Positions 5,287-8,200 of a stretch of DNA of 64,000 nucleotides are shown piece after piece. Positions within the stretch are counted from its first letter, which is position 1, and each line of letters opens with the position of its first letter. The position numbers were made by a program. This stretch comes from Escherichia coli (GTDB taxonomy: Bacteria; Pseudomonadota; Gammaproteobacteria; Enterobacterales; Enterobacteriaceae): assembly GCF_048403405.1 (NCBI RefSeq), contig NZ_CP183129.1; one strand, 5' to 3'.

Positions 5287-8200
5287 TAAGTTCGCAAAGT
5301 GGTAACTGCCGTGTGTTCTCTTAAAGCTATCGTTAATGGGCACACGGCATTTTTATATCAGATAAACGATATGTCATGACAATTTACAGACAGCATCGAT
5401 ATATAATTCATATTTATTAATTCTTAATAATATTTCTCATCTGAGTATGTATCATACAATAAGCATTATAAATAACTAATAAATTATTTATTATATTTAT
5501 ATATTGCCCCACTCTTCAGTTATCCTGTCTAAAATAAATCTCTTTGTTTTCAAATGACTGTATTTTTATATAAAGTCAATCATTGCGAGCATGGATTCTT
5601 TTAGTTATATTACCAAGCAGCTCATATAATATTTTCCAGCCATTCTATCTCTTATTTTTTTTCTGTGGTTAACTACACCAGCTTTATTCATTTAAATAAT
5701 GTGACTTGTTAAAGCTGAATGTAAAAATAATCGCCAATATTGCTTGGATTTTTTAACAAAAGGAAAGGTATAAATGAAATTCAATCTATCTAATTTATCC
5801 GCAGTTTTACTCGCATCAGGTATGCTGATGTCAACTGCGGTAACCGCTGCGCCAGGCGATGCATCACAATTTGGTGGTGCGGATACAGACTGGAGCACCG
5901 TTGATTATCCAAAACTCACCGATATGGATAGCAACACCGATGCGATGGGCGGAAACATCCGCTTTACTGGTCGTGTGGTTAAAGCGACGTGTAAGGTTGC
6001 TACAGAATCGAAACAGATTGAAGTGGTACTGCCAGTCGTACCTTCTAACGCTTTCACGGGCATTGATACCGAAGCAACGGGTGCCAGTAACCAGACTGAC
6101 TTCAACATTAAATTGACTGATTGTAGCAATACGGACAGTCAAAATATTGAATTTCGTTTTACTGGCGTAGCAGACGGTGCCAACCAGACGCTTGCCAATG
6201 AAGTGGAAGGAGCTGCTGATGCTGATGGTACTGGCGAAGCGGGAGCTACGGGTGTAGGGATTCGTATTTATTCTAAAAACACGACAACTGATGGCCTGAT
6301 TAAGCTGAACACACAAACTCCCCAGGGGAGTAGTTCTTCAGCAGCCTACGTGATTCCTGGCGATGCAGCCACTCATGATTTTACTGCGGCATTTACCGCG
6401 GGCTATGCTCAGAACGGTAGTACCGTTGCACCAGGTCTGGTGAAATCAACGGCAAGTTTCGTCGTGCTGTACGAATAATTACAGCAAGATAATTTCAGGT
6501 TACAGTTACTTGTAACCTGAAATTAATATTACATGTTTATTTGTAATAAATAGACATGCATCAGTAATTACAATTAATTTCATCTACAAGGATGCAGTAT
6601 GAGATGGATTTCAAAAAATAAATGTTTTTCGAATAGAAACATTAATTCTTTGCTGAAGACCCAATATATCATAAGGGCCGGTGCTCTATTTTTACTATCC
6701 GCCATATCTATCAATGCTATTGCTGCGGGTGGCTTCGGTCTTGGTTCTACGCGTCTGGTTTATCCATCTGACAGTCAGCAAATTACGCTAAGTGTACAGA
6801 ATGGTGGGGCTAACACCAGCTATTTAATCCAGTCATGGATTGATGACAATCAAAGCAGTAAAAAAAGTCAGGATTTTGTGGTTACGCCTCCTTTATTTAT
6901 GTTACCAACGCGAAAAGAAGCCTCATTGAGGATAATGTTTATTGGTAAATCACAGTTACCGACTGATCGCGAAACATTATTCTGGATGAATGTGAAAGCG
7001 ATTCCGCCAACGGATGAGAAGAATACCCAGAAAAACACGTTACAACTGGCGTTACAAAACAGAATTAAATTATTTTACCGTCCGACTAATTTACCCGTTC
7101 AAGCTGGTAAAGCACGGGATATGCTGCGATTTAAATACGAAGGTAAACAGCTAAGAGTCATTAACCCTTCTCCCTATTATCTGACGGTGACTGGAATCAG
7201 GGTGCAAGGGGCAAAATTACCCAATGCGTTTGTTCCACCGAAAAGTGACGTAACAGTGTCTTCACCAGTGATGCTAGCCGGTGAAATTACTTATCAAACT
7301 ATCAATGATTACGGTGCCACAACGGCCAGGCAAAAGGGAACGATGCAATAAACCTGGAAGATTAAAACGTTAAAGCAACTCAGGTCAGGGATATGAACCT
7401 AAAGCTCAGAAAACTCGAACACAGGATGGCAAGGCAGAAGCAGATGAGGCGGTGTATGCTGCTTCTACTGACACTTTTGCCTGCGTGTTCAGTGGCGGGT
7501 ATGCGCTTTAACCCTGCATTCCTGTCGGGTGATACAGAAGCTGTTGCTGATTTATCTCGTTTTGAGAAAGGGATGACATATCTACCTGGTAGTTATGAGG
7601 TTGAAATATGGGTCAATGATTCGCCTTTGACATCACGTAAGGTTACTTTCAAAGCTGATGAGCAGAATCAGTTGATCCCCTGTTTTTCGCTCGATGAGTT
7701 AGTTACTTTAGGAATTAACAAAAGTGCATTGCCGGAACAGGCGCAAGCAGAGGGAAATAATTGTCTCGATTTACGTATATGGTTCGCAGAAGTTCAATAC
7801 ACTCCTGAACTGGATGCGCAACGACTCAAACTGACCTTTCCGCAGGCAATATTAAAGCATGAAGCCCGTGGTTATATTCCACCTGAGGAATGGGATAATG
7901 GTATCCCGGCCATTCTTATTAATTATGATTTTTCTGGCAACAGTGATCGTGGAGACTATGCGTCTGATAGTTATTATTTAAATCTCCGTTCAGGTTTAAA
8001 TTTAGGGGCGTGGCGTTTTCGTGATTATTCTACATGGAGTCGTTCAGGTAATTCACCGGGTAAAATTGCACATGTGAGTAGTACGTTACAACGAGTAATT
8101 ATTCCTTTTAAAAGTGAATTAACACTAGGTGATACCTGGTCTTCATCGGATGTTTTCGACAGTGTGAGTATTCGTGGTGCTAAACTTGAATCCGATGAAA

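What the first reader, a model, noticed from the sequence alone, without database searches (positions are those of the whole stretch)
5355..5773. Extremely AT-rich fimbrial control region with no local regulator or invertible switch
The ~420 bp upstream of the pilin gene is far more AT-rich than the rest of the window and contains multiple TATAAT-like hexamers, a profile typical of H-NS-bound, normally silent promoters. I looked for a fimS-like invertible element (flanking inverted repeats plus an adjacent recombinase) and found none. No dedicated regulator gene is present either, so expression presumably depends on global regulators acting in trans.
Basis: partly seen in the sequence, partly recalled or inferred. 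Interest (0 to 1): 0.3.

Follow-up and report, generated by a model that had tools for sequence, protein, structure and literature searches.

The report
AT-rich promoter region of auf fimbriae
This is the very AT-rich control region in front of a known E. coli fimbrial operon (auf, in the version carried by strain 042), most likely kept silent by the nucleoid protein H-NS and without any DNA-flipping switch; this is ordinary for such operons.

Summary
Window 5355-5773 is 25.5% GC, the lowest of any 419-bp stretch in the 64 kb (mean 51%). It lies between the glgP terminator and a 7-gene chaperone-usher operon.

The operon is aufABCDEFG in the glgP-glpD island. It is a divergent allele (65-84% protein identity to CFT073 Auf). 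The same allele is in EAEC strain 042, where the gene is already called aufA.

- Published ChIP-seq in CFT073 lists every auf gene as bound by H-NS and StpA.
- auf is poorly expressed in vitro. It is induced about 5 log2 by overproducing the trans-acting PapB-family protein TosR.
- There is no invertible switch. The upstream region is colinear in 785 of 786 complete genomes that carry it. A fimS control run the same way showed inversions.
- There are no GATC sites, no recombinase and no regulator gene.
- The TATAAT-like hexamers are no more frequent than the base composition predicts.

Two candidate sigma-70 promoters sit in the one distal block conserved between alleles (5563-5641).

Caveat: the H-NS evidence comes from the other allele.

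Minor curiosities are a length-variable poly-T tract and a highly conserved leader and 5' coding stretch.

Verdict: already known, low interest.

The parts
5307..5354 (+). Intrinsic terminator of glgP (hairpin 5307-5349 plus U5). It is island-specific and differs from the K-12 terminator.
   Evidence: RNA fold -20.5 kcal/mol, z = -4.2, 0 of 200 shuffles as stable. K-12 homology ends at 5293.
5355..5562 (.). Distal AT-rich tract. It is poorly conserved between the two auf alleles (~50-60% identity). Presumed H-NS/StpA nucleation and spreading platform.
   Evidence: Composition. Identity profile. Two matches within 2 mismatches to the H-NS 10-mer TCGATAAATT at 5381-5390 and 5396-5405. Role inferred.
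5563..5641 (+). The only conserved block of the distal non-coding region (72-80% identity between alleles). Predicted core promoter region.
   Evidence: It contains both positionally conserved promoter candidates.
5583..5611 (+). Promoter candidate Pa: -35 TTGCGA, 17 bp spacer, -10 TATATT (B2 allele: TTGCGG / 17 / TACATT). Predicted transcription start ~5618.
   Evidence: Consensus scan. Top PWM score in the window allele and positionally conserved in B2. Not mapped experimentally.
5602..5630 (+). Promoter candidate Pb: -35 TAGTTA, 17 bp spacer, -10 TATAAT (B2 allele: TAGGTA / 17 / TATAAT). Predicted transcription start ~5637.
   Evidence: The TATAAT is invariant in all 10 aligned sequences. 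Not mapped experimentally.
5655..5662 (+). Poly-T tract (T8 here) in the predicted leader, length-polymorphic among strains (T6-T8).
   Evidence: Alignment. 224 genomes: T8 in 32; in a 60-row sample T7 ~63% and T6 ~22%.
5730..5773 (+). Highly conserved proximal leader with the Shine-Dalgarno sequence AAGGAAAGG (5760-5768). It is 5' part of the most conserved stretch of the island (5730-5930).
   Evidence: 50-nt windows across 5730-5930 are about 90% or more identical between alleles (88-98%), against a 72% island mean.
5774..6478 (+). aufA, major pilin (234 aa).
   Evidence: Pfam Fimbrial 1.4e-21. 84% aa identity to CFT073-type AufA. Protein WP_000671312.1 is shared with strain 042.
6599..7351 (+). 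aufB, periplasmic chaperone.
   Evidence: PapD_N and PapD_C. 78% identity to the B2 allele.
7393..9984 (+). aufC, outer-membrane usher.
   Evidence: Usher, PapC_N and PapC_C. 81% identity to the B2 allele. 50% to K-12 ElfC.
9984..10547 (+). aufD, minor pilin.
   Evidence: Pfam Fimbrial. 74% identity.
10555..11079 (+). aufE, minor pilin.
   Evidence: Pfam Fimbrial. 70% identity.
11045..11824 (+). aufF, second chaperone.
   Evidence: PapD_N and PapD_C. 65% identity.
11838..12968 (+). aufG, putative tip adhesin.
   Evidence: C-terminal Fimbrial domain in a 376-aa protein. 81% identity.
13107..13321 (+). Pseudogene remnant, related to c4204 of the B2 island. Not a regulator.
   Evidence: RefSeq note 'frameshifted; incomplete'. 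77% nt identity to L002 18557-18731. No Pfam hit.

Best explanation
The region is the 5' regulatory DNA of the auf chaperone-usher fimbrial operon. This is the phylogroup-D-type allele, also found in EAEC 042, and it sits in the variable glgP-glpD island.

Transcription from upstream is stopped by the glgP terminator (shown by folding). The operon's own sigma-70 promoter most likely lies in the conserved block 5563-5641. The candidates are Pa at 5583-5611 and Pb at 5602-5630, which would give a leader of ~137-156 nt (inferred).

The 75% A+T, TpA-rich DNA around and upstream of the promoter, together with the 40% GC operon body, is coated by H-NS/StpA filaments that keep the operon silent under laboratory conditions. 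This is shown by ChIP-seq for the CFT073 allele and inferred for this allele.

Expression therefore depends on trans-acting counter-silencers or environmental relief of H-NS. The only factor so far linked to auf is the PapB-family protein TosR, which is encoded elsewhere and only in some strains.

There is no cis-acting ON/OFF switch: no DNA inversion and no Dam/Lrp methylation.
For: Identity of the locus:
- 100% match to E. coli GN02461, between glgP and glpD.
- Seven genes in the auf order and at the auf site, 65-84% aa identity to the CFT073-type proteins, with flanking glgP 98.5% identical.
- The literature places auf in 'GR24 glpD..glgP' (PMC12928451) and reports aufA in strain 042 and phylogroup D lineage 2 (PMC7500659; the same AufA protein is in 042).

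Silencing:
- The region is the GC minimum and the TpA maximum of the window.
- The B2 allele keeps 24.8% GC despite only 59% identity in the distal part. Composition, not sequence, is what is conserved.
- c4204-c4214 are all H-NS- and StpA-bound in CFT073 (PMC9765446).
- auf is poorly expressed and is induced 2.6-6.6 log2 by TosR overproduction (PMC5956150).
- The paralogous K-12 elf/ycb operon (usher 50% identical) has the same 24-30% GC upstream region. Cryptic K-12 chaperone-usher operons are reported as H-NS-repressed (PMC3559732).

Promoter:
- Only two -35/-10 candidates are conserved in position in both alleles, and both lie in the conserved block.

No switch and no regulator.
Against: - No H-NS ChIP, hns-mutant or transcription-start data were found for this allele. 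The strain 042 hns RNA-seq table is truncated in the held copy, before the relevant rows.
- The H-NS 10-mer motif is only weakly enriched, with 2 sites within 2 mismatches.
- There is no 10-11 bp AA/TT phasing, so there is no evidence of strong intrinsic curvature.
- Promoter calls rest on consensus scoring in DNA where such matches are expected by chance.
- It is unclear whether TosR acts directly. Whether strains with this allele carry tosR was not tested.
Confidence: 0.75

Rival explanations
1. A fimS-like invertible promoter element: part of the AT-rich region flips between ON and OFF orientations, catalysed by a tyrosine recombinase encoded elsewhere in the genome.
For: Recombinases can act in trans. 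Short imperfect inverted repeats exist, for example 19 nt at 74% (5490-5508 / 5762-5780) and 12 nt at 83% (5383-5394 / 5714-5725).
Against: - The longest perfect inverted repeat is 8 nt, against a shuffle mean of 9.4; 99% of shuffles do as well.
- No recombinase gene in the island or the 64 kb.
- The region is a single colinear piece in 227/228 genomes with this allele and 558/558 with the B2 allele, and in all 6 loci fetched.
- The same test on fimS gave 263 of 4722 genomes without full colinear cover and 273 extra places. One of these was verified as a 322-bp inverted segment.
Confidence: 0.02
2. A Pap-like epigenetic phase switch: Lrp and Dam compete at paired GATC sites upstream of the promoter, helped by PapI/PapB-type proteins.
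For: Many E. coli fimbrial operons of the pap family use this mechanism. A PapB-family protein (TosR) affects auf. dam lies in the same window.
Against: There is not one GATC between 5290 and 5800. There are no papI or papB homologues in the island.
Confidence: 0.01
3. Poly-T tract slippage as a contingency mechanism: changes in the length of the T6-T8 tract (5655-5662) tune or switch auf expression.
For: - The only indels among strains of each allele fall in a poly-T tract of the leader. This allele: T8 14%, T7 ~63%, T6 ~22%. B2 allele, at a different tract ~30 nt downstream: T9 17%, T8 the majority, T6-T7 the rest.
- T7 and T8 differ between otherwise identical sub-lineages.
Against: - Tracts of 6-9 nt are short for efficient slippage.
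- The lengths largely follow lineages: the T9 records listed include CFT073, Nissle 1917 and ATCC 25922, and T6 comes with linked SNPs.
- Homopolymer errors in long-read assemblies could create T7/T8 calls.
- The tract lies downstream of both promoter candidates, not in a spacer.
- The position of the tract is not conserved between alleles.
Confidence: 0.07
4. There is no dedicated silencing. The region is compositional junk at an island edge, and the operon is transcribed constitutively or by read-through from glgBXCAP.
For: No direct expression data exist for this allele. Promoter-like matches are at chance level.
Against: - A strong intrinsic terminator follows glgP.
- The CFT073 allele is H-NS/StpA-bound and poorly expressed.
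- A conserved promoter block and a highly conserved leader argue for function.
Confidence: 0.05
5. A hidden local regulator: a small ORF or small RNA inside the 420 bp controls the operon.
For: Three ORFs of 28-31 aa overlap the region.
Against: - The alleles differ by indels inside these ORFs, and the distal region is only 50-60% identical.
- There is no Rfam match (best E = 0.21, 13.7 bits against a gathering score of 60).
- The leader RNA folds no better than shuffles (z = -0.19).
Confidence: 0.03

Closest known systems
aufABCDEFG of uropathogenic E. coli CFT073 (c4214-c4207), described by Buckles et al. 2004 (paper not held; cited through PMC5956150)
   Same: Same chromosomal site (glgP-glpD), same seven-gene order and same domain content. 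The upstream region is of similar length (484 vs 494 bp) and GC (25.5% vs 24.8%). They share a conserved promoter block and a near-identical Shine-Dalgarno/leader.
   Different: It is a divergent allele: proteins 65-84% identical, distal upstream DNA ~59% identical. It lacks the three downstream hypothetical genes c4206-c4204, of which only a remnant is left. It is found in ~228 of 5426 complete genomes, against ~558 for the B2 type.
Cryptic H-NS-silenced chaperone-usher operons of E. coli K-12 and ExPEC (elf/ycb, yad and others)
   Same: A structural-gene-only operon without a local regulator. It has a 24-30% GC upstream region, is silent in the laboratory, and H-NS is the repressor.
   Different: These are paralogues (usher 50% identical) at a different chromosomal site. 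H-NS repression of this auf allele has not been shown directly.
Type 1 fimbriae fimS invertible switch (FimB/FimE)
   Same: An AT-rich region of several hundred bp upstream of the major pilin gene of a chaperone-usher operon.
   Different: No flanking recombinases, no inverted repeats above chance, and no orientation polymorphism across 786 genomes, whereas fimS shows it.
pap-family Dam/Lrp/PapI-PapB phase-variation region
   Same: An AT-rich regulatory region that responds to a PapB-family protein (TosR for auf).
   Different: No GATC sites, no papI/papB genes and no divergent regulator gene.

Membership tests
auf (aufABCDEFG) fimbrial operon | Located in the island between glgP and glpD. | tested here: met
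   glgP ends at 5289 and glpD lies at 13475-14995 on the minus strand. The literature gives 'GR24 glpD..glgP = auf operon'.
auf (aufABCDEFG) fimbrial operon | Seven genes in the order pilin, chaperone, usher, two minor pilins, second chaperone, large adhesin-like subunit. | tested here: met
   Pfam domains of all seven ORFs. Same order and lengths as in the clone D i14 / CFT073-type locus.
auf (aufABCDEFG) fimbrial operon | Sequence homology to the CFT073 Auf proteins along the whole operon. | tested here: met
   One colinear blastn alignment across 5200-12997 at 74% nt identity. 65-84% aa identity per protein. The allele of strain 042 is called aufA in PMC7500659.
H-NS/StpA-silenced (xenogeneic) promoter region | A+T content far above the genome average over several hundred bp, rich in TpA steps. 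| tested here: met
   25.5% GC against 51%, the lowest in the window. 57 TpA steps, the highest in the window.
H-NS/StpA-silenced (xenogeneic) promoter region | H-NS occupancy in vivo (ChIP). | not testable with these tools
   Shown only for the homologous CFT073 allele: c4204-c4214 are listed as H-NS- and StpA-bound (PMC9765446, Data set S1 sheet 1E). No data were found for this allele.
H-NS/StpA-silenced (xenogeneic) promoter region | Derepression in hns (and stpA) mutants, with low expression in wild type. | not testable with these tools
   Low expression and TosR induction are reported for CFT073. The strain 042 hns RNA-seq table is truncated before the relevant rows in the held copy.
fimS-type invertible promoter switch | Inverted repeats bounding the invertible segment. 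| tested here: inconclusive
   The longest perfect inverted repeat is 8 nt, below the shuffle mean of 9.4. However, the same test cannot tell the true 9-bp fimS repeat from chance, so it has little power.
fimS-type invertible promoter switch | Adjacent site-specific (tyrosine) recombinase gene(s). | tested here: not met
   There is none in the island or anywhere in the 64 kb.
fimS-type invertible promoter switch | Both orientations found among sequenced genomes. | tested here: not met
   Colinear in 227/228 and 558/558 genomes. In the fimS control, 263 of 4722 genomes were not colinear, and one inversion was verified.
pap-type Dam/Lrp epigenetic switch | Paired GATC sites within Lrp-binding sites upstream of the promoter. 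| tested here: not met
   Zero GATC sites in 5290-5800.
pap-type Dam/Lrp epigenetic switch | Local papI/papB-type regulator genes. | tested here: not met
   No such ORFs. All genes are structural.

The most novel reading that the evidence does not exclude
The auf leader may carry its own layer of control beyond H-NS silencing. Two observations point that way. First, the ~45 nt before the start codon plus the first ~50 codons are the most conserved part of two otherwise very old alleles, with synonymous changes halved. Second, each allele has independently acquired a length-variable poly-T tract in the leader. Together these could mean a post-transcriptional element or a slippage-tuned element that sets Auf expression lineage by lineage.
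Probability: 0.08. Interest if true: 0.35.

Novelty: already known. Interest (0 to 1): 0.1.

Why it matters
It matters little beyond bookkeeping.

The analysis identifies the operon as the phylogroup-D-type allele of auf and links it to existing ChIP-seq and RNA-seq data from CFT073. It also shows, by population-scale comparison with a positive control, that auf has no invertible switch.

This supports the general picture that most accessory chaperone-usher fimbriae of E. coli are regulator-less, AT-rich islands held silent by H-NS/StpA and released by trans-acting factors.

For people working on Auf it offers testable promoter coordinates. It also flags that the two alleles share only a short promoter block and the translation-initiation region.

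Tried and rejected
- Rfam scan of 5200-5900 at E <= 1: only a 13.7-bit chance hit.
- Inverted-repeat length against shuffles: no excess, but the fimS control shows the test lacks power, so I relied on cross-genome orientation instead.
- H-NS 10-mer TCGATAAATT: 2 sites within 2 mismatches in the region. This is too weak to use as evidence.
- AA/TT helical periodicity as a proxy for curvature: none.
- RNA fold of the predicted leader: z = -0.19, no special structure.
- Small ORFs in the spacer: not conserved between alleles.
- Usher-based search of one genome per species (GTDB) for orthologues to footprint: only 43-54% identical paralogous operons in Citrobacter, Klebsiella, Salmonella, Pantoea and others. 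These are unusable for nucleotide footprinting, and the peptide patterns may have missed other Escherichia species.
- Strain 042 hns/hns2 RNA-seq table (PMC5861252): the held copy is cut before rows EC042_RS19635-19665.
- Original auf paper (Buckles 2004): not held.
- Three hypothetical genes downstream of auf in B2 strains, considered as possible regulators: no Pfam domain, and absent from this window except for a remnant.
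Full report
**What is at the coordinates**

The window is E. coli chromosome. It matches strain GN02461 (a blood isolate) at 100% identity over the 1.3-kb query used (window 5200-6500). The layout is:
- glgC, glgA and glgP (2842-5289) on the + strand;
- a seven-gene operon at 5774-12968;
- a short pseudogene remnant at 13107-13321;
- glpD on the - strand at 13475-14995.

Pfam assigns the seven genes as pilin, PapD-type chaperone, usher, two minor pilins, a second chaperone, and a ~380-aa subunit with a C-terminal pilin domain.

The finding covers the spacer between the glgP terminator and the pilin start codon. 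The first 65 bp after glgP fold into a strong intrinsic terminator: hairpin 5307-5349 followed by U5, -20.5 kcal/mol, z = -4.2.

**Check of the observation**

Region 5355-5773 is 25.5% GC, against 51.1% for the window and 40.5% for the island. The lowest 419-bp sliding window of the whole 64 kb lies here (5380-5798, 24.8%). The runner-up is 33.4%, at the malP-malT spacer. The region also has the highest count of TpA steps in the window.

TATAAT-like hexamers are present: 4 exact and 24 within one mismatch, counting both strands. That is what the composition predicts. Dinucleotide shuffles give 27.2 +/- 4.4. Complete -35/-10 matches number 4 against 3.6 expected. So the compositional observation is confirmed, and the hexamers add nothing independent.

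**Identity of the locus**

The operon is an allele of aufABCDEFG.
- In B2 strains (clone D i14, Nissle 1917, UTI89, APEC O1, and CFT073 itself) a seven-gene operon of the same order and gene lengths sits at the same glgP-glpD site.
- The literature places the auf operon in 'GR24 glpD..glgP' (PMC12928451).
- The window aligns colinearly with the B2 locus across the whole operon at 74% nt identity.
- Protein identities are AufA 84%, B 78%, C 81%, D 74%, E 70%, F 65% and G 81%. The adjacent glgP is 98.5% identical.

So this is a second, old allele at the same site.
- It occurs in about 228 of 5426 complete E. coli genomes. The B2 allele occurs in about 558.
- It is the allele of EAEC strain 042, which has the same AufA protein, WP_000671312.1, and a frameshifted aufB.
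- Boisen et al. already report aufA in strain 042 and phylogroup D lineage 2 (PMC7500659).

K-12 has neither allele. Its glgP-glpD spacer holds an unrelated yzgL remnant. Homology to the window stops 4 bp after the glgP stop codon and resumes at 13300.

**Is it an H-NS-type silenced promoter?**

Direct evidence exists for the sister allele.
- Hustmyer et al. (PMC9765446) performed H-NS and StpA ChIP-seq in CFT073. Their Data set S1, sheet 1E ('H-NS bound gene') lists every gene from c4204 to c4214. That is the whole auf operon plus the three downstream hypotheticals. All are bound by H-NS and by StpA in wild type, with occupancy from 0.24 (aufA) to 0.69.
- Luterbach et al. (PMC5956150) report that auf is poorly expressed. 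[quoted passage not shown]
- In human serum, Auf was the only chaperone-usher locus that went down (PMC13245861).

The B2 upstream region is only 59% (distal part) to 74% (proximal part) identical to the window, yet its GC is 24.8%. Composition is what is preserved, as expected if the requirement is H-NS binding and not a specific sequence.

The K-12 paralogue elf/ycb (usher 50% identical) shows the same 24-30% GC upstream tract. Cryptic K-12 chaperone-usher operons are reported as H-NS-repressed (PMC3559732).

Weaker points:
- the published H-NS 10-mer is barely enriched;
- there is no helical phasing of AA/TT;
- I found no ChIP or hns-mutant data for this allele, because the strain 042 RNA-seq table is truncated in the held copy.

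**Is there an invertible switch?**

No recombinase gene lies in the island or in the rest of the window. The rest is core backbone: glpEGR, rtc, malT/PQ, gntT, feo, ompR-envZ, pckA, mrcA, hof, aroKB, damX-dam.

The longest perfect inverted repeat with 30-480 bp spacing is 8 nt. Shuffles average 9.4. That test is weak, because the genuine 9-bp fimS repeat is not distinguishable from chance either.

The decisive test is population-level. An invertible element should appear in both orientations among assemblies.
- The upstream region is one colinear piece in 227 of 228 genomes with this allele and in 558 of 558 with the B2 allele, and in all six loci I fetched.
- The same procedure on fimS left 263 of 4722 genomes without colinear cover and produced 273 extra places.
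- The one example I inspected (STEC409) has the expected 322-bp middle segment on the opposite strand.

A Pap-type Dam/Lrp switch is excluded more simply. There is no GATC anywhere in 5290-5800 and no papI or papB homologue.

**Is there a local regulator?**

No. All seven genes are structural. The remaining ORF is a remnant of a c4204-like gene. Small ORFs in the spacer are not conserved between alleles. Rfam finds nothing.

The three extra genes of the B2 island have no recognisable domains and are absent here.

**Anatomy of the control region (inferred)**

Comparison of the two alleles divides the spacer into four parts:
- a distal tract, 5355-5562, at 50-60% identity, which is effectively unconserved;
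- a conserved block, 5563-5641, at 72-80% identity;
- a variable stretch, 5642-5700;
- a proximal leader that rises to 98% identity and continues into aufA.

A PWM scan finds only two -35/-10 pairs that keep their position in both alleles, and both are in the conserved block:
- Pa: TTGCGA-17-TATATT, 5583-5611;
- Pb: TAGTTA-17-TATAAT, 5602-5630.

These predict a transcription start near 5618 or 5637 and a leader of about 137-156 nt. The leader has no unusual RNA structure. These assignments are predictions, not mapped starts.

**Things seen on the way**

- Stretch 5730-5930, the last ~45 nt of the leader plus the first ~52 codons, is the most conserved part of the whole island (50-nt windows 88-98% identical, against a 72% mean). 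Synonymous differences there are about half as frequent as elsewhere in aufA. This could be a gene-conversion tract or a constraint on translation initiation.
- The only indels among strains of each allele are in a leader poly-T tract. In this allele it is T6-T8 at 5655-5662. In the B2 allele it is T6-T9 at a different position. The lengths mostly follow lineages, and homopolymer sequencing error cannot be excluded.

**Verdict**

The feature is the known kind of AT-rich, regulator-less, H-NS/StpA-silenced promoter region typical of accessory chaperone-usher operons, in front of an operon that already has a name.

Novelty: already known. Interest: low (0.1). The most novel reading not excluded is an extra leader-based control layer, at about 8% probability.

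Noticed in passing
window 5655-5662 (and L002 9619-9628 in the B2 allele): A leader poly-T tract is the only indel site among strains. In this allele it is T8 in 32 of 224 genomes; in a 60-row sample T7 is ~63% and T6 ~22%. The B2 allele has a different tract ~30 nt further downstream, with T9 (CFT073, Nissle) down to T6. T7 and T8 differ between otherwise identical sub-lineages. This is either real slippage or homopolymer assembly error.
   Followed up: partly
window 5730-5930: The last ~45 nt of the leader plus the first ~52 codons of aufA are the most conserved stretch between the two auf alleles (50-nt windows 88-98% identical, against a 72% island mean). Synonymous differences are about halved there (11 vs ~23 per 52 codons). 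It may be a gene-conversion tract or a constraint on the translation-initiation region.
   Followed up: partly
window 5293-13300; L003 2595-3030; L002 17044-19132: The glgP-glpD spacer exists in at least three unrelated states. K-12 has a yzgL remnant. This window has auf plus a c4204-like remnant (13134-13307). B2 strains have auf plus three hypothetical genes (c4206-c4204), which are also H-NS-bound in CFT073 and have no Pfam domains.
   Followed up: partly
L043 8975-9726 (E. coli 042): In the prototype EAEC strain 042 the chaperone gene aufB of this same allele is annotated as frameshifted, so the operon may be non-functional there. In the window (GN02461) aufB is intact.
   Followed up: no
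window ~42635-43307 (- strand): By coordinate mapping from the GN02461 annotation, a RelE/ParE-family toxin gene and a NadS-family gene sit between pckA and envZ, in a stretch of lowered GC (43.5%). This is a small accessory insertion unrelated to the finding.
   Followed up: no
window 23876-24294: The second-lowest GC stretch of the window (33.4%) is the divergent malP-malT promoter spacer. This shows how far the auf upstream region (25%) lies outside ordinary core intergenic DNA.
   Followed up: no
window 5307-5354: The glgP terminator is part of the island and differs from the K-12 terminator. Both auf alleles keep the CCGTGTG / CACGG-type stem despite ~64% identity of the segment.
   Followed up: partly
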